IMG/VR virus record: IMGVR_UViG_2671180577_000005
Reading direction: 5' to 3' (one strand)
DNA: 4,217 nt
DNA from: a virus
Lineage: Duplodnaviria; Heunggongvirae; Uroviricota; Caudoviricetes
Numbering within the stretch: the first letter of the stretch is position 1; the number at the start of each line of letters is the position of its first letter. Shown piece by piece: positions 1 to 4,190 of this stretch. The position numbers and the translations under genes are program-made. Under the pieces are notes generated by a model. It did no database searches and was not told the origin of the DNA. It was given only the letters and a program-made list of their open reading frames with translations.

Positions 1-91
1 CTCTCGTCTGGGGAATATCTCCCCGGCAGCCTTCAGGGAAAAATATCATCAGATAGCTGCTTAAAAAAAGAACAAATGGTAGTGTCCGCTA

Positions 92-676
92 TTGTCAGTA
101 CACCTCATTGCTCTGCGTTTTCGGGACTGTGAGTTTGATAATTATCTGGAGGTTAATCCTGACGCAGCCAGAAATCTTGCGGCCTGTCGCCGCTATGCGG
201 AGAACTGGCCAGATATGCTGGAGAACGGTACCAGTCTTGTTATGACCGGCAGTTGCGGTACCGGGAAAAATCATCTGGCGGTATCAATGGCAAAACACAT
301 CATCCGTAACTATCTGGCCAGTGTGGAGATCACCGACGTGATGCGCCTTACCCGGGCTGTGAAAAACTGCTGGCGGAATGACAGTGAAAAAACAGCGGAT
401 GACGTCATTGAGCATTATGCGTCACTGGATTTGCTGATTGTCGACGAAGTCGGCGTTCAGTTTGGCAGTGCGGCTGAAATGGCCATTTTGCAGGAAATTA
501 TCAATGCCCGGTATGAGGGTATTTTGCCAACTATCCTGATCAGCAACCTTTCACCGGAAGAATTGTGGGCGTTCATCAGTCCCCGGATTGCCGACAGGAT
601 CACCGATGGCGGGCGCAACTGGTTGTCGTTTAACTGGCCCAGCTACCGTTCTCGTATCGGAGGTGTTGCCGCATGA
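92..676 (+). CDS. DnaC-like AAA+ helicase loader (phage replication protein); N-terminal domain apparently absent and start codon uncertain
   Basis: Translation has Walker A GSCGTGKN (nt 248-271), Walker B DLLIVDEVG (nt 428-454) and C-terminal FNWPSYRSR, which parallels the E. coli DnaC C-terminus (FNWDSYRSR, recalled from memory). Similarity to DnaC begins only at about DnaC residue 65. The only canonical in-frame start after the stop at 80-82 is TTG at 92, with no convincing Shine-Dalgarno. The stop TGA 674-676 overlaps the ATG of the next gene. Confidence 0.8.
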   Translation: MSVHLIALRFRDCEFDNYLEVNPDAARNLAACRRYAENWPDMLENGTSLVMTGSCGTGKNHLAVSMAKHIIRNYLASVEITDVMRLTRAVKNCWRNDSEKTADDVIEHYASLDLLIVDEVGVQFGSAAEMAILQEIINARYEGILPTILISNLSPEELWAFISPRIADRITDGGRNWLSFNWPSYRSRIGGVAA

Positions 677-2073
677 CCAGCCAGAACACCCCGGCATGGC
701 GTAACGATGACCTGGAAGGCGCTGTCATCGGTGCGTTTTTTCTGCGTGGGGCCGATCCGGAAGTGATGGATATTCTGGCCACACTTCCGGCGGATGTATT
801 TTTTGTGCGTCAGTACCGGGATATTTACGCGGGGATTTGCAGACAGGCTCGCATATCCGGCGTCATTGACCCCGTACTGCTGTGCAATGAGATGCCGGAA
901 CTTGCCCCGGTGATTACCGACACCGGACGCAAAACCTGGGTGAAGTCTTCACTGGAGCACTATGTCGCAGCGTTGCGGCGCAATGCCGCACTGCGCGATG
1001 CAGAAAAAACACTGACTGAAGCATTACAGAATTTACGTGATGCGTATACCTGTGAAGCAGCCGAGGATGCCCTGAAGGATGCGCAGAACATGATGGCCTC
1101 ACTGTCGACCGGAAAGGGCGTCATTCAGCCGGTTCACATTGATGATGTCCTTCCGGAAGTGGTCGACCGTGTTGAATGCCGCAATCAGGGACTGGAGAAA
1201 TCCAGGGCGCTGATGACCGGTATTGATGAACTGGACGCAAAAACGGGCGGTATGGAGCCCGGAGACCTGGTATTCATTGCCGCCCGTCCTTCGATGGGGA
1301 AAACCGAACTTGCGCTGGACATCATCGACAAGGTGACTGAGCAGGGGCATGGCGTGCTTCTGTTCACCATGGAGATGGCGAACATCCAGATTGGTGAACG
1401 TATGGTGTCTGCTGCCGGTGGAATGCCGGTATCCCGTCTTAAGTCTGTTGCCCGTTTTGAAGATGAAGACTGGGCGCGTTTCTCGCAGGGCGTGGGACGA
1501 ATGACGGGGCGTAATATCTGGATGGTGGACCAGGCAAACCTGACCATTGATGAGATATGTGCAACCACGAAGCACCACCGGATGAAACACCCGGAAACGG
1601 CGCTGGTGGTGGTCGATTACCTCGGCCTGATTAAAACCCGCAGCACGGGGCGTCACGACCTTGCGGTGGGGGAAATCTCAAAGGGACTTAAAAGCCTGGC
1701 AAAATCCGGCGGTTTTCCGCTGATTGCTCTGAGCCAGCTCTCCCGCGGCGTGGAATCCAGACCCAATAAACGCCCAATGAACTCGGACCTGAAAAACTCC
1801 GGGGAAATCGAGGCGGATGCCGACATCATTCTGATGCTTTACAGGGATGAGGTATACAACCCGGAAACTCAGGCCAGAGGCATAGCAGAAATCAACATCA
1901 CGAAACAGCGTAATGGCACGCTGGGTACCATTTACCGGCGTTTTCATAACGGGCATTTTCTGCCTGTGGATCAGGAGAGTGCCCGGGTTCTTTCCACACC
2001 CATGACGCCGGGCAATCCGCGCAGATACAGCAATAACCGCATGTCGGGCAGTAAAACGGAGCGTTTATTTTGA
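673..2073 (+). CDS. DnaB-family replicative DNA helicase (phage-encoded)
   Basis: 466-aa ORF with a DnaB-like N-terminal domain (LEGAVIGAFFL...), Walker A ARPSMGKT (nt 1282-1305), and motifs DEDWARF, VVVDYLGL and ALSQLSRGVESRPNKRPMNSDLKNSGEIEADADIILMLYRDEVYN that closely track E. coli DnaB (recalled). SD GGAGG at 659-663 lies 9 nt upstream of ATG 673. ATGA overlap with the upstream gene. Confidence 0.92.
   Translation: MTSQNTPAWRNDDLEGAVIGAFFLRGADPEVMDILATLPADVFFVRQYRDIYAGICRQARISGVIDPVLLCNEMPELAPVITDTGRKTWVKSSLEHYVAALRRNAALRDAEKTLTEALQNLRDAYTCEAAEDALKDAQNMMASLSTGKGVIQPVHIDDVLPEVVDRVECRNQGLEKSRALMTGIDELDAKTGGMEPGDLVFIAARPSMGKTELALDIIDKVTEQGHGVLLFTMEMANIQIGERMVSAAGGMPVSRLKSVARFEDEDWARFSQGVGRMTGRNIWMVDQANLTIDEICATTKHHRMKHPETALVVVDYLGLIKTRSTGRHDLAVGEISKGLKSLAKSGGFPLIALSQLSRGVESRPNKRPMNSDLKNSGEIEADADIILMLYRDEVYNPETQARGIAEINITKQRNGTLGTIYRRFHNGHFLPVDQESARVLSTPMTPGNPRRYSNNRMSGSKTERLF
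1602..1609 (+). other. Chi octamer 5'-GCTGGTGG-3'
   Basis: Exact match on + strand, within the dnaB-like gene (codons ALVV). Confidence 0.9.
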
Positions 2074-2327
2074 ACAACAGAACAATCACTGTTTCACCGG
2101 AACAACTTCGTCGGCAGGCGCAGGAGATGCTTCGTTGTGCTGAACAGATGGAAAAAACGAGCGTGGCAAAAGATACGCTCCGCAAGCAGCTTACTCCGGC
2201 GCTTCGTGATCTGCTGCAGGCAAAACACCGTACACAAAAGGCGGTGGATGAGCTGGTGGATTGCGTGGAGGAACTGGAAGGACAGGTAAGCCAGTTTGAA
2301 ACGCTGGTGAAGGAGTTTACTGCGTGA
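2070..2327 (+). CDS. hypothetical small coiled-coil protein (nin-region-like), function unknown
   Basis: 85-codon ORF in the operon orientation. TTG start at 2070 overlaps the helicase stop (TTGA) and has SD GGAG at 2058-2061; alternative ATG starts at 2127 or 2148. Charged, heptad-like sequence (EQLRRQAQEMLRCAEQMEK...VDELVDCVEELEGQVSQFETLVKEF). The opposite-strand ORF 1898..2389 is Ser/Cys-rich and low-complexity, so the + strand is favoured. Confidence 0.5.
   Translation: MNNRTITVSPEQLRRQAQEMLRCAEQMEKTSVAKDTLRKQLTPALRDLLQAKHRTQKAVDELVDCVEELEGQVSQFETLVKEFTA
2252..2259 (+). other. Chi octamer 5'-GCTGGTGG-3'
   Basis: Exact match on + strand, within the 85-aa ORF (codons ELVD). Confidence 0.9.
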
Positions 2328-2373
2328 TGGCTGAATTTTTTTCTCCTGCGTTCATGCAATACCGTTCGCTGAG

Positions 2374-3369
2374 GTGACCGTGAGAGCACTGCTGACCCCT
2401 GAAATTGCCCCGCGTATGGGGATCGTCTTGTTCAGACCCGGTTCAGAGCTGATGCCCCTGTTTATGCAGGGGCGTGTCCTGCTGGAGCCTGAGCCGGAAC
2501 GTTATTCATCTTTTGCCAGTGGTGCCGTTCCGGCAGCATCACAACCGCTGGCGGATGATCCTGCCGTTCGGGCCGTGTTCCGCCATGAGGCGGTGATCCG
2601 TCGTGCTGGTGGTGTGGAATGCCTTGAGAGCTGGTTACTTCGTGAAAAAGGCTGCCAGTGGCCTCATTCCGGATGGCACAGCGAGAACATGACCACAATG
2701 CGACACGCGCCGGGCGCAATCCGTCTGTGCTGGCACTGCGATAACCTGCTTCGCGATCAGTTCACGGAACGTCTGGAATCAATGGCAACGGATAACTGTG
2801 CCCGCTGGGTGTTGTCCGTAGTCCGTCGTGATCTCGGTTTTGATGACAGCCACGTTGTGACAATGCCGGAACTGTGCTGGTGGCTGGTTCGTAATGACCT
2901 GGCGGATGCCTTACCGGAAAGTGCAGCCCGTAAGGCACTGAGATTACCGAAGCCTGTTGTGCCGTCTGTCACCCGGGAAAGTGACCTTGTGCCTTCGGTT
3001 CCTGCCACCAGCATCATCCGGGATAAGGCGAAAAAGGTGCTGGCGCTGAAAGTGGATCCGGAGTCGCCGGAGTCTTTTATGTTACGCCCCAAACGTCGTC
3101 GCTGGGTTAATGAAAAGTACACGCGCTGGGTTAAGACGCAGCCGTGTGCATGTTGTGGTAAGCCAGCCGACGATCCTCATCACCTGATTGGTCATGGTCA
3201 GGGTGGAATGGGTACAAAAGCGCATGACCTTTTTGTGTTGCCTTTGTGCAGAAAACACCATGACGAACTGCATGCGGATACCGTGGCATTTGAAGAGAAG
3301 TATGGTTCCCAACTGGAGCTGATATTTCGTTTTATCGATCGCGCGCTGGCGATTGGTGTGCTGTCCTGA
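2374..3369 (+). CDS. Cys/His-rich prophage protein with C-terminal YdfU/YbcO-like (DUF968/DUF1364-type) putative zinc-binding, nuclease-like motif; N-terminal domain of unknown function
   Basis: 331-codon ORF; start GTG 2374 or, more likely, GTG 2380 (SD GAGG at 2371-2374). C-terminal motif QPCACCGKPADDPHHLIGHGQGGMGTKAHDLFVLPLCRKHHDELH (nt about 3112-3273) matches my recollection of the Cys/His pattern of E. coli prophage proteins YdfU/YbcO. N-terminal region has C83, C94 and CWHC at 119-122 with several His. Pro/Ser-rich linker at about residues 190-235. Lies between the replication genes and Q, as nin-region genes do. Confidence 0.7.
   Translation: MTVRALLTPEIAPRMGIVLFRPGSELMPLFMQGRVLLEPEPERYSSFASGAVPAASQPLADDPAVRAVFRHEAVIRRAGGVECLESWLLREKGCQWPHSGWHSENMTTMRHAPGAIRLCWHCDNLLRDQFTERLESMATDNCARWVLSVVRRDLGFDDSHVVTMPELCWWLVRNDLADALPESAARKALRLPKPVVPSVTRESDLVPSVPATSIIRDKAKKVLALKVDPESPESFMLRPKRRRWVNEKYTRWVKTQPCACCGKPADDPHHLIGHGQGGMGTKAHDLFVLPLCRKHHDELHADTVAFEEKYGSQLELIFRFIDRALAIGVLS
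2605..2612 (+). other. Chi octamer 5'-GCTGGTGG-3'
   Basis: Exact match on + strand, within the 331-aa ORF (codons RAGGV). Confidence 0.9.
2876..2883 (+). other. Chi octamer 5'-GCTGGTGG-3'
   Basis: Exact match on + strand, within the 331-aa ORF (codons CWWL). Confidence 0.9.
3005..3012 (-). other. Chi octamer on the minus strand (CCACCAGC as read on +)
   Basis: The only reverse-orientation Chi I found by manual scan. Confidence 0.85.
3058..3075. repeat. tandem 9-bp direct repeat CCGGAGTCG / CCGGAGTCT (encodes PES-PES) inside the 331-aa gene
   Basis: Read directly from the sequence: 3058-3066 and 3067-3075 differ at one base. Confidence 0.85.
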
Positions 3370-3386
3370 TTTTGTGGAGAAAGTTG

Positions 3387-3767
3387 ATGCGTGATATTCA
3401 GATGGTTCTTGAACGCTGGGGGGCATGGGCTGCAAGTGGTAACACCGGGGTGGACTATTCTCCGATCGCTGCCGGATTCAAAGGACTTTTACCATCTGCC
3501 ACTAAACCACGTCCGGCCTGCTGCGATGATGACGGACTTATCATTGAAAACTGTCTTGCTCGTCTGAAGCAGAAAAAACCTGAGGAGTATTCGCTTCTCA
3601 TTGCTCATTATTTGTTGCGAATATCAAAAAGACAGATAGCCAGGAAGAGAAAGAAAAGCGAAAAAGCAATACGAATTGAGATGCAGATAGCCGAAGGGTT
3701 TATTGACGGATGTTTGTCTGTGCTGGGGGTAAGACTGGAGATGGACGACTGGCTGCTAAAAAAGTAA
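3387..3767 (+). CDS. late-gene antitermination protein Q (short Q family, QuuD-like)
   Basis: 126-aa product from ATG 3387 with SD GGAG at 3376-3379; the ORF track's 3372 start is an upstream TTG extension. The N-terminus MRDIQMVLERWGAWAA and the CCDDD motif match my recollection of the short antiterminator Q family of E. coli prophages. It is followed by a promoter-like region and a strong intrinsic terminator, as expected for Q/PR'/tR'. Confidence 0.75.
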   Translation: MRDIQMVLERWGAWAASGNTGVDYSPIAAGFKGLLPSATKPRPACCDDDGLIIENCLARLKQKKPEEYSLLIAHYLLRISKRQIARKRKKSEKAIRIEMQIAEGFIDGCLSVLGVRLEMDDWLLKK

Positions 3768-3835
3768 AAAATGATTAGTGCGGTCCGCAAAAAGTATGTC
3801 AGTATGTTAAGAGTGGTTACTTCGCCACACAGCTT
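3768..3835 (+). promoter_or_regulatory. candidate late promoter (PR'-like) and Q-utilisation (qut) region
   Basis: Intergenic, AT-rich, immediately downstream of Q and upstream of the terminator. Tandem -10-like elements TATGTC (3795-3800) and TATGTT (3803-3808) sit within a direct repeat AGTATGT-c-AGTATGT (3794-3808). Possible -35 TGATTA at 3772-3777 (17-bp spacer). Alternative pair TGGACG (3742-3747) and TAAAAA (3765-3770). Exact hexamers and transcription start are not resolvable by eye. Confidence 0.3.
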
Positions 3836-3861
3836 AAACCCGCCGCGAGCGGGTTTTTTTA
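3836..3861 (+). terminator. rho-independent terminator (tR'-like) downstream of Q
   Basis: GC-rich hairpin, arms CCCGC (3839-3843) and GCGGG (3849-3853) around loop CGCGA, followed by a 7-T run (3854-3860). Confidence 0.8.
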
Positions 3862-3891
3862 TGGCTGAAATCGGTCCAGTACAGTAAACGT

Positions 3892-3982: not shown

Positions 3983-4180
3983 ATGCTAAAACAGCAGGAT
4001 ATGACAGAAACCGCCAGAGTGGTGTTTAATGAATTAAGCGTTACCGAACCGGCGACAGTCGGGGAGATAGCGCAGAATACTTACCTTTCACGCGAACGCT
4101 GCCAGTTAATACTGACTCAGCTGGTTATGGCGGGTCTGGCAGACTATCAGTTCGGTTGTTACAGACGCCTTCCGCAGTGA
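3983..4180 (+). CDS. small (65 aa) putative winged-helix DNA-binding protein (PapI/FaeA-like pattern), moron-like gene downstream of Q
   Basis: ATG 3983 with SD AGGGA at 3971-3975 (7-nt spacer). The ORF track's longer version from GTG 3890 lacks an SD and would start inside the terminator-proximal region. Segment TVGEIAQNTYLSRERCQLILTQLVMAGLA has the helix-turn-helix pattern of small wHTH regulators. Its stop overlaps an intrinsic terminator. Confidence 0.5.
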   Translation: MLKQQDMTETARVVFNELSVTEPATVGEIAQNTYLSRERCQLILTQLVMAGLADYQFGCYRRLPQ

Positions 4181-4190
4181 AGGCTTTTTT
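4167..4190 (+). terminator. rho-independent terminator after the small wHTH ORF
   Basis: Arms GCCTTC (4167-4172) and GAAGGC (4179-4184) around loop CGCAGT, followed by a 6-T run (4185-4190). The stop codon TGA 4178-4180 lies within the stem-loop. Confidence 0.7.

What the first reader, a model, noticed from the sequence alone, without database searches (positions are those of the whole stretch)
2070..2380. Stop/start relay: helicase to 85-aa coiled-coil ORF to 16-codon micro-ORF to 331-aa gene
Read directly from the sequence. The dnaB-like stop (TGA 2071-2073) overlaps TTG 2070 of the 85-aa ORF. That ORF's stop (TGA 2325-2327) overlaps the ATG (2327-2329) of a micro-ORF, MAEFFSPAFMQYRSLR (2327-2377), which is absent from the ORF track. 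The micro-ORF's stop (TGA 2375-2377) overlaps GTG 2374 and lies 2 nt before GTG 2380, the candidate starts of the 331-aa gene. This suggests termination-reinitiation coupling that would tie expression of the 85-aa and 331-aa proteins together, and so hints that they act as a pair.
Basis: seen in the sequence. Interest (0 to 1): 0.45.

Follow-up and report, generated by a model that had tools for sequence, protein, structure and literature searches.

The report
Leftover mini-ORF at phage gene junction
The chain of touching stop and start codons is real, but the 16-codon mini-ORF looks like an unconserved by-product of two phage gene modules being spliced together, so this is ordinary tight gene packing in a prophage.

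Summary
All coordinates check out: TTGA 2070-2073, TGATG 2325-2329, micro-ORF 2327-2377, GTG 2374 and GTG 2380. The window is the replication/nin region of a lambdoid, Stx-phage-like prophage: DnaC-like, DnaB-like, 85-aa gene, DUF968/YdfU His-Me nuclease, Q.

The micro-ORF straddles a mosaic joint.
- Its ATG and the AAGGAG upstream are the conserved 3' "SD+TGATG" launch site of the 85-aa gene. In relatives that ATG starts Q (phiP27, Stx1 phages) or a Dam-like methylase.
- Its 3' end (from 2359) belongs to the DUF968 cassette. There, TGA 2370-2372 is the stop of a KilA-N gene in most sampled E. coli genomes.

Across 81 junctions the micro-ORF gives ten different reading-frame products. A T6/T7 tract shifts its frame:
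- 50 have 14 codons
- 29 have 16 codons
- 1 has 18 codons
- 1 is fused to DUF968

The body of the micro-ORF is about as diverse as third codon positions.

DUF968 starts at GTG 2380 (329 aa) behind its own strong SD, GAGGTGA. That motif contains both TGA stops.

Only 187 of 2365 E. coli genomes carrying this DUF968 segment have the 85-aa gene upstream. The micro-ORF may incidentally ferry ribosomes, but it is not a conserved element, and obligate pairing is not supported.

The parts
673..2073 (+). DnaB-like replicative helicase gene. Its ATG overlaps the stop of the DnaC-like gene (ATGA 673-676).
   Evidence: Pfam DnaB_C 7.8e-74; ORF list.
2058..2061 (+). GGAG Shine-Dalgarno (SD) 8 nt upstream of TTG 2070.
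   Evidence: Read from the sequence. Conserved in phiP27, Stx1 phages and MLI109.
2070..2327 (+). 85-aa all-helical protein gene (phiP27 L20 family, phrog_2565). Its TTG start overlaps the helicase stop (TTGA 2070-2073).
   Evidence: Homologues in phiP27 (70% identity from residue 1), Klebsiella, Hafnia and the Lys8385Vzw C-terminal domain. phrog_2565 1.9e-30. AF2 model is a single helix 10-84, pLDDT 86.5.
2310..2315 (+). AAGGAG SD inside the 3' end of the 85-aa gene, 11 nt before ATG 2327. It is the inherited launch site for whatever gene follows.
   Evidence: Relatives have AGGAGG, or weaker variants such as ATGAGG, at the same place upstream of TGATG (GTGA in yong2). There it serves Q or a methylase.
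2325..2329 (+). TGATG: stop of the 85-aa gene overlapping the ATG of the micro-ORF. Left microhomology flanking the DUF968 cassette.
   Evidence: Invariant across the 76 junctions aligned over flanks (pi = 0). The ATG is the Q start in phiP27, Stx1_499 and MLI109.
2327..2377 (+). 16-codon micro-ORF MAEFFSPAFMQYRSLR*. A junction by-product, not a conserved gene.
   Evidence: Ten different products and four end points among 81 junctions. Never annotated in the records examined.
2336..2342 (+). T7 homopolymer tract. T6 in many relatives, which shifts the micro-ORF frame.
   Evidence: T7 30 vs T6 10. T6 and T7 are interspersed when sequences are clustered by their flanks. One locus (L091) is in frame with DUF968.
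2330..2358 (+). Junction-specific spacer with no homology in either parental arrangement. Fast-evolving.
   Evidence: phiP27-type homology ends near 2329 and KilA-N-type homology starts at 2359. pi over 2330-2369 is 0.10-0.11, against 0.024 for the 85-aa gene and 0.10-0.11 for DUF968 third positions.
2359..2372 (+). Left edge of the DUF968 cassette. Homologous to the last codons and TGA stop (2370-2372) of the KilA-N gene that precedes DUF968 in most phages.
   Evidence: Matches to SfII, SfV, cdtI, mEp460, ST64B and 54 of the 60 E. coli genome rows listed begin at window 2359. The SfII KilA-N CDS ends at the equivalent of 2372.
2371..2377 (+). GAGGTGA, a 7-nt SD for GTG 2380 (GAGG core 5 nt upstream). 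Extended to TGAGGTGA (2370-2377) it holds both TGA stops (2370 and 2375).
   Evidence: Read from the sequence. pi = 0.004-0.006 over 2370-2382. The same motif precedes DUF968 in SfII, ST64B and yong2.
2380..3369 (+). DUF968/YdfU His-Me (HNH) finger protein gene, 329 aa, GTG start.
   Evidence: Pfam DUF968 4.8e-81. phrog_96 2.1e-175 over residues 1-328. Start supported.
3385..3389 (+). Second TGATG, which contains the ATG (3387) of Q. Right microhomology flanking the cassette 2330-3386.
   Evidence: Alignment of window, SfII and phiP27-type junctions.
3387..3767 (+). Antiterminator Q gene, 126 aa.
   Evidence: Pfam Phage_antitermQ 6.4e-53. Annotated as Q or QuuD in relatives.

Best explanation
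This stretch is the tightly packed early-right (replication/nin) operon of a lambdoid prophage, in the order DnaC-like, DnaB-like, 85-aa helical protein, DUF968/YdfU nuclease-like protein, Q. Genuine genes touch by 4- or 5-nt stop/start overlaps, which is the usual layout for translational coupling.

The 16-codon micro-ORF is a by-product of a mosaic joint, not a gene.

Left side. [quoted passage not shown] In relatives the ATG of that TGATG starts the next real gene: Q in phiP27, Stx1 phages and MLI109, or a Dam-like methylase in KpnBHU6.

Right side. In this lineage a DUF968 cassette (2330-3386, flanked by TGATG on both sides) sits between that ATG and Q. The cassette brought its own leader: the last 14 nt of a KilA-N gene, including its TGA stop, and the strong SD GAGGTGA before GTG 2380.

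Consequence (inferred). The orphaned ATG reads into unconstrained spacer and stops at whichever of the two TGAs in TGAGGTGA lies in frame. That depends on a T6/T7 tract.

Likely operation (inferred, not shown). Ribosomes finishing the 85-aa gene probably reinitiate at ATG 2327, make a short meaningless peptide, and terminate 2 nt (T7) or 7 nt (T6) before GTG 2380. This may incidentally help initiation there. DUF968 can also initiate independently from its own SD, as it must in other gene contexts.
For: Shown:
1. Mosaic boundaries fall inside the micro-ORF. phiP27-type homology ends near 2329, and SfII/SfV/cdtI/mEp460/ST64B-type homology begins at 2359.
2. In 5426 complete E. coli genomes, 2365 carry this DUF968 5' segment. 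Only 187 carry the 85-aa junction. In the 60 listed rows, 54 start at 2359, 53 of them with KilA-N upstream.
3. The TGATG ATG is the annotated start of Q in phiP27, Stx1_499 and MLI109. It is the likely start of a 295-aa methylase in KpnBHU6, where GTG 1600 is an in-frame alternative. A comparable upstream SD is present in each.
4. The cassette is bounded by TGATG at 2325-2329 and 3385-3389.
5. Among 81 junctions: 50 have 14 codons ending 7 nt before the start, 29 have 16 codons ending 2 nt before, 1 has 18 codons overlapping the start, and 1 is fused in frame. There are ten distinct products.
6. T6 and T7 are interspersed among flank haplotypes.
7. Nucleotide diversity of 2330-2369 is 0.097-0.11. 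That compares with 0.024 for the 85-aa gene, 0.042 for DUF968, and 0.10-0.11 for DUF968 third positions. TGATG (0) and the SD/start (0.004-0.006) are conserved.
8. No RNA structure beyond shuffles (z = 0.26). No promoter or terminator in 2300-2400. No Rfam match there.
9. GTG 2380 is the start in every annotation and in divergent homologues.
Against: - The donor of the 29-nt spacer 2330-2358 was not found, so the direction and mechanism of the joint (insertion or deletion) are inferred only.
- An ATG-initiated ORF bridging the 52-nt gap is kept in 80 of 81 junctions, and the G of the ATG is invariant. That could reflect selection for a sequence-independent ribosome relay rather than pure history.
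- No expression data were available.
Confidence: 0.8

Rival explanations
1. Selected ribosome relay. The micro-ORF is maintained, whatever its sequence, to carry terminating ribosomes across the 52-nt gap so that DUF968 translation is coupled to the 85-aa gene.
For: - SD + TGATG is invariant, and the ORF is open up to the SD-embedded stops in 80 of 81 junctions.
- Coupling by termination-reinitiation is reported to need overlaps or very short spacing (title of the Huber et al. 2023 paper as cited in the reference list of PMC12548453; PMC6728339). A bridge would therefore be needed.
- In other contexts the gene upstream of DUF968 also ends inside or next to the SD.
Against: - SD and TGA are already constrained by the 85-aa coding sequence and its stop.
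- Only 3.4-3.7% of substitutions would create a premature stop. With about 12 variable sites, finding none is expected.
- The termination point varies (-7, -2, overlapping, fused) with no compensating change.
- DUF968 has a strong SD of its own, and no occluding RNA structure was detected.
- The body of the micro-ORF evolves neutrally.
Confidence: 0.15
2. The T tract is a programmed frameshift or transcriptional slippage site that yields an N-terminally extended DUF968 isoform starting at ATG 2327.
For: - One extra T, or a -1 shift, puts ATG 2327 in frame with DUF968. Frame 1 is open from 2335.
- One natural variant (L091) is fused in frame, giving 346 aa.
Against: - There is no canonical X XXY YYZ heptamer in the micro-ORF frame (GAA TTT TTT TCT) and no downstream structure.
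- Tract length is not conserved. T6 would need the opposite shift.
- The extension is absent where KilA-N, RusA or the 171-aa gene lies upstream.
- T7 is short for efficient polymerase slippage (general knowledge).
Confidence: 0.03
3. The micro-ORF encodes a functional micropeptide.
For: It probably has a working initiation site.
Against: - Ten different products in near-identical phages. Codon-by-codon reading of the T6 haplotype (L001) against the L042 haplotype gives seven non-synonymous and one synonymous codon change (sequences).
- Frame shifts after codon 5, and diversity is neutral-like.
Confidence: 0.02

Closest known systems
Translationally coupled overlapping gene pairs (ATGA/TGATG termination-reinitiation; Huber et al. 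2019, PMC6728339; review PMC12548453)
   Same: - Co-directional ORFs with 4- or 5-nt stop/start overlaps and an SD inside the upstream gene.
- This applies to DnaC-like/DnaB-like (ATGA), DnaB-like/85-aa (TTGA) and the TGATG at the end of the 85-aa gene.
   Different: - Here the ORF launched by the TGATG is not a gene but a 14-18 codon, unconserved spacer ORF.
- Coupling has not been measured.
Mosaic module junctions of lambdoid phages (exchange at gene boundaries in the nin region)
   Same: - Homology with different relatives stops abruptly at or near gene borders.
- The same DUF968-Q cassette is found behind KilA-N, RusA, a 171-aa gene or the 85-aa gene.
- Short microhomology (TGATG) lies at the joints.
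   Different: Nothing essential. This joint happens to leave an orphaned start codon that opens a short ORF.
Regulatory leader peptides / upstream ORFs (attenuation or arrest peptides)
   Same: A short translated ORF lies immediately upstream of a gene and ends in its ribosome-binding site.
   Different: - No conserved peptide, frame or length.
- No alternative RNA structures (z = 0.26).
- No terminator.
YdfU (Qin prophage) / YbcO (DLP12) group of His-Me finger proteins (PMC5714182, group 7)
   Same: - The downstream gene is a full-length DUF968 protein with the C-terminal Cys/His HNH-type motif.
- It sits just upstream of Q in every DUF968-bearing locus whose downstream gene was examined.
   Different: Function unknown in all cases. 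Nothing here ties its activity to the 85-aa protein.

Membership tests
Translationally coupled overlapping gene pair (termination-reinitiation) | Co-directional ORFs whose stop and start codons overlap (ATGA, TGATG and similar) | tested here: met
   ATGA 673-676, TTGA 2070-2073, TGATG 2325-2329. Conserved in relatives.
Translationally coupled overlapping gene pair (termination-reinitiation) | The downstream partner is a genuine, conserved protein-coding gene | tested here: not met
   This applies to the 85-aa/micro-ORF link. The micro-ORF has ten products, a shifting frame and neutral-like diversity. The feature is met for the helicase/85-aa link.
Translationally coupled overlapping gene pair (termination-reinitiation) | Downstream translation depends on upstream translation | not testable with these tools
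   Needs reporter fusions or ribosome profiling.
Regulatory leader peptide / uORF | Peptide sequence, frame or length conserved among homologous loci | tested here: not met
   Lengths of 14, 16 and 18 codons, or fused. Sequences diverge after MAEFF/MTEFF.
Regulatory leader peptide / uORF | Associated alternative RNA structure or terminator | tested here: not met
   Fold z = 0.26. No terminator-like site in 2300-2400. No Rfam match there.
Programmed -1 frameshift / slippage site | Slippery X XXY YYZ heptamer in the zero frame, with conserved length and a downstream stimulator | tested here: not met
   The zero frame reads GAA TTT TTT TCT. The tract varies between T6 and T7, with one T8 created by substitution. 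No structure detected.
Lambdoid phage mosaic module junction | Abrupt loss of homology to different relatives on each side, at or near gene borders | tested here: met
   Left homology ends near 2329 and right homology starts at 2359 (or 2381 in Lys8385Vzw).
DUF968 / YdfU His-Me finger family (Pfam PF06147) | Match above the Pfam gathering score | tested here: met
   271.3 bits against a cutoff of 27.8, E = 4.8e-81. phrog_96 2.1e-175.
DUF968 / YdfU His-Me finger family (Pfam PF06147) | Nuclease activity | not testable with these tools
   Only the CxxC...HH...CxxHH motif is visible in the translation.

The most novel reading that the evidence does not exclude
The micro-ORF could be a sequence-independent ribosome shuttle that bridges a 52-nt mosaic scar. 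The T6/T7(/T8) tract would then act as a heritable knob that moves its termination point: 7 nt upstream, 2 nt upstream, or an in-frame fusion. That would tune how much DUF968 nuclease-like protein is made relative to the replication genes.
Probability: 0.1. Interest if true: 0.4.

Novelty: already known. Interest (0 to 1): 0.12.

Why it matters
As it stands, it matters little. It is a textbook example of compact phage operon packing and of a scar left by modular recombination.

It is a useful caution. An ORF that fits neatly between two genes, with overlapping stops and starts, can arise automatically in two steps:
- a conserved "SD + TGATG" launch site is joined to a new cassette;
- the cassette's ribosome-binding site (TGAGGTGA) contains stop codons in both other frames.

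If the relay idea were shown experimentally, it would be a small natural example of coupling maintained across a recombination joint by a meaningless spacer ORF.

Tried and rejected
- RNA structure around 2295-2400: no more stable than shuffled sequence (z = 0.26).
- Promoter and terminator scan: nothing in 2300-2400.
- Rfam at relaxed threshold: no match in the region.
- Programmed frameshift: considered and rejected. There is no in-frame slippery heptamer and the tract length is variable.
- Donor of spacer 2330-2358: not found. Neither the phage records nor the E. coli genome rows listed showed homology starting near 2330.
- KilA-N tail as the origin of the spacer: a by-eye comparison of the T6 peptide tail (..LLRSCNTVR*) with the SfII KilA-N tail (..LLKLLDTVH*) is suggestive only beyond the shared ATACCGTTC. 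It was not pursued.
- 85-aa protein against the SfII KilA-N protein: no similarity.
- Absence of premature stops as evidence of selection: no statistical power. Only 3.4-3.7% of substitutions would create a stop.
The single-sequence model was used instead.
- T6/T7 counts across all 187 E. coli genomes with the junction: not done, because the search output cannot be paged. The 81 IMG/VR junctions and 15 phage records were used instead.
Full report
**Observation**

The window was read in full and all ORFs of at least 20 aa were listed. Every coordinate in the finding is correct.
- The DnaB-like ORF 673-2073 ends in TGA 2071-2073, overlapping TTG 2070 (TTGA).
- The 85-aa ORF 2070-2327 ends in TGA 2325-2327, overlapping ATG 2327 (TGATG).
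- ATG 2327 opens MAEFFSPAFMQYRSLR and stops at TGA 2375-2377.
- That stop overlaps GTG 2374 and lies 2 nt before GTG 2380.

**What the genes are**

Pfam and PHROGs give:
- DnaC/IstB-like ATPase, 92-676
- DnaB-like helicase, 673-2073
- an 85-aa protein of unknown function (phrog_2565, 1.9e-30)
- a DUF968/YdfU His-Me (HNH) finger protein (PF06147, 4.8e-81; phrog_96, 2.1e-175)
- antiterminator Q (PF06530, 6.4e-53)

This is the replication/nin segment of a lambdoid phage. The closest relatives are Stx2a-converting phages at 97-98.5% identity.

The 85-aa gene is real. It is conserved from residue 1 in phiP27 (70% identity), a Klebsiella phage (60%), and Hafnia phage yong2 (45%). It also matches the C-terminal half of a 171-aa protein of phage Lys8385Vzw (35% identity, E = 1e-14). 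A single-sequence AlphaFold model is one long helix, residues 10-84, with pLDDT 86.5.

**True start of the DUF968 gene**

Every annotated relative uses the equivalent of GTG 2380, giving a 990-nt CDS of 329 aa.
- In Lys8385Vzw, nucleotide homology starts at that codon, which is TTG there. The position equivalent to 2374 is not a start codon.
- The Hafnia and Klebsiella homologues align from residue 1, MRALLTPE / MRMILT.
- GAGGTGA (2371-2377) is a 7-nt match to the extended Shine-Dalgarno (SD) consensus, with its GAGG core 5 nt before GTG 2380 (SD consensus from general knowledge).

**The micro-ORF straddles a mosaic joint**

BLAST against phage records and 5426 complete E. coli genomes shows three arrangements.

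(a) helicase, 85-aa, micro-ORF, DUF968, Q, as in the window. Found in 15 phage records and 187 E. coli genomes.

(b) KilA-N, DUF968, Q. In the spread sample, 54 of 60 rows begin at window 2359, and 2365 genomes carry the segment in all. Examples are SfII, SfV, cdtI, mEp460 and ST64B. The homology always begins at window 2359, and the KilA-N gene ends at the TGA equivalent to window 2370-2372.

(c) helicase, 85-aa, Q. Seen in phiP27, seven Stx1a phages and E. coli MLI109. Homology ends near window 2329, and the ATG of the TGATG is the annotated start codon of Q.

In the Klebsiella phage KpnBHU6 the same TGATG launches a 295-aa Dam-like methylase. The 85-aa gene therefore ends in a built-in SD plus a stop/start overlap: TGATG everywhere except yong2, which has GTGA. 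This site serves whatever gene lies downstream.

In the window, the downstream element is a cassette, 2330-3386. TGATG bounds it on both sides, at 2325-2329 and 3385-3389, and the second TGATG contains the Q start. The micro-ORF is thus a chimera of three pieces:
- the orphaned initiation site of the next gene
- 29 nt of junction-specific spacer (2330-2358)
- the leader of the DUF968 cassette (2359-2379)

An exact-pattern scan of IMG/VR found 38 junctions. A protein-guided scan found 80 loci. Among 81 junctions, window included:

| Micro-ORF outcome | Count |
|---|---|
| 14 codons, ending at the TGA 7 nt before the GTG start | 50 |
| 16 codons, ending 2 nt before (the window's state) | 29 |
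| 18 codons, overlapping the start (TGA to TGG) | 1 |
| In frame with DUF968 (346 aa) | 1 |

- There are ten different products, for example MAEFFSPAFMQYRSLR, MAEFFLLRSCNTVR, MTEFFSLYAFNIVC and MAEFFLLCSCNIVR.
- The frame change comes mainly from a T6/T7 tract at 2336-2342. The two states are interspersed when sequences are clustered by their flanks.
- Nucleotide diversity in 2330-2369 is 0.097-0.11. That is four times the value for the 85-aa gene (0.024) and equal to DUF968 third codon positions (0.10-0.11).
- TGATG (0) and the SD/start (0.004-0.006) are conserved.
- No annotation examined calls the micro-ORF.

An ORF survives in 80 of 81 junctions, but this is uninformative. Only 3.4-3.7% of substitutions would create a stop. 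All three frames are open across the spacer. Both non-gene frames are closed by the two TGAs inside TGAGGTGA.

**Other readings tested**

- No stable RNA structure (z = 0.26).
- No promoter or terminator in 2300-2400.
- No Rfam family.
- No in-frame slippery heptamer for -1 frameshifting.

**Mechanism**

Shown:
- the gene order
- the overlaps
- the mosaic boundaries
- the lack of constraint on the micro-ORF body
- the independent SD of DUF968

Inferred:
- Ribosomes that finish the 85-aa gene reinitiate at ATG 2327, because the site is used for real genes in relatives.
- They translate a meaningless 14-16 residue peptide and terminate in or beside the DUF968 SD.
- This may or may not raise initiation at GTG 2380.

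Published work shows that ATGA/TGATG pairs are usually tightly coupled (PMC6728339, abstract). A review reports that in vivo coupling is weak at long stop-to-start spacing and lists a 2023 study whose title states that overlaps or very short distances are required (PMC12548453). A bridging ORF could therefore matter across a 52-nt gap, but nothing here shows that it is selected for.

**The 'pair' idea**

DUF968 is most often preceded by KilA-N. It is also found preceded by RusA in yong2 and by a 171-aa gene in Lys8385Vzw. Relatives of the 85-aa gene are followed by Q or a methylase. Adjacency is therefore not conserved.

A residual hint remains. The Lys8385Vzw 171-aa protein directly upstream of DUF968 carries an 85-aa-like C-terminal domain. 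KpnBHU6 and yong2 have both genes one or two genes apart. DUF968 is common in nin regions, so this may be background.

**Comparison with known systems, and verdict**

The arrangement works like ordinary translationally coupled phage operons and ordinary lambdoid mosaic joints. It fails the tests for a leader-peptide regulator, a micropeptide gene and a programmed frameshift site. DUF968 belongs to the YdfU/YbcO His-Me finger group (PMC5714182). It has also been discussed as Orf-like domains fused to HNH (PMC4118853).

Novelty: already known in kind. Interest: low (0.12).

The most novel reading still open is a sequence-independent ribosome shuttle whose end point is tuned by the T tract. I put its probability at about 0.1.

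Noticed in passing
window 1-106 (junction at 106/107): The first 106 bases are the end of an IS600 (IS3-family) element: 99.1% identity, up to 43 copies per E. coli genome. Homology to the phage DnaC-like loader gene begins only at 107, so the loader is 5'-truncated (194 aa against about 292-299 aa in relatives). None of the 5426 complete E. coli genomes has this exact junction. The window therefore probably comes from a defective prophage, possibly in Shigella, whose early operon is cut off from its promoter.
   Followed up: partly
window 3770-3862: A strong terminator-like hairpin (3836-3856, 8 bp, then a T run) lies about 70 nt downstream of Q. It overlaps sub-threshold Rfam hits to isrK (18.3 bits) and Trp_leader (21.6 bits). 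It is likely the tR'-type terminator of the Q-dependent late leader transcript.
   Followed up: no
window 2070-2327; L044 1475-1990: The 85-aa protein matches only the C-terminal part of the PHROG profiles (positions 121-203 of 204, and 153-226 of 229). In phage Lys8385Vzw a 171-aa protein with a homologous C-terminal half (35% identity, E = 1e-14) sits immediately upstream of DUF968. The family therefore exists in short and long forms.
   Followed up: partly
window 2380-3767; L002, L044, L128, L132: In every DUF968-bearing locus whose downstream gene was examined, DUF968 lies immediately upstream of Q, even though the Q genes differ in annotated length (312, 381-384 and 753 nt). This suggests a conserved position, or co-transfer with the Q start region.
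   Followed up: no
window 3983-4180: A small ORF (65 aa from ATG 3983; phrog_331 1.4e-37; weak TrmB-like HTH hit) is followed by a terminator-like hairpin at 4167-4184. It is annotated as a hypothetical or TrmB-family regulator in Stx2 phages and phiP27.
   Followed up: no
L091 (IMGVR_UViG_2529292908_000015): One natural variant has T6 on the MTEFF-type background. This places ATG (the window 2327 equivalent) in frame with DUF968, giving a predicted 346-aa protein. It could be a real allele or a homopolymer sequencing error.
   Followed up: no
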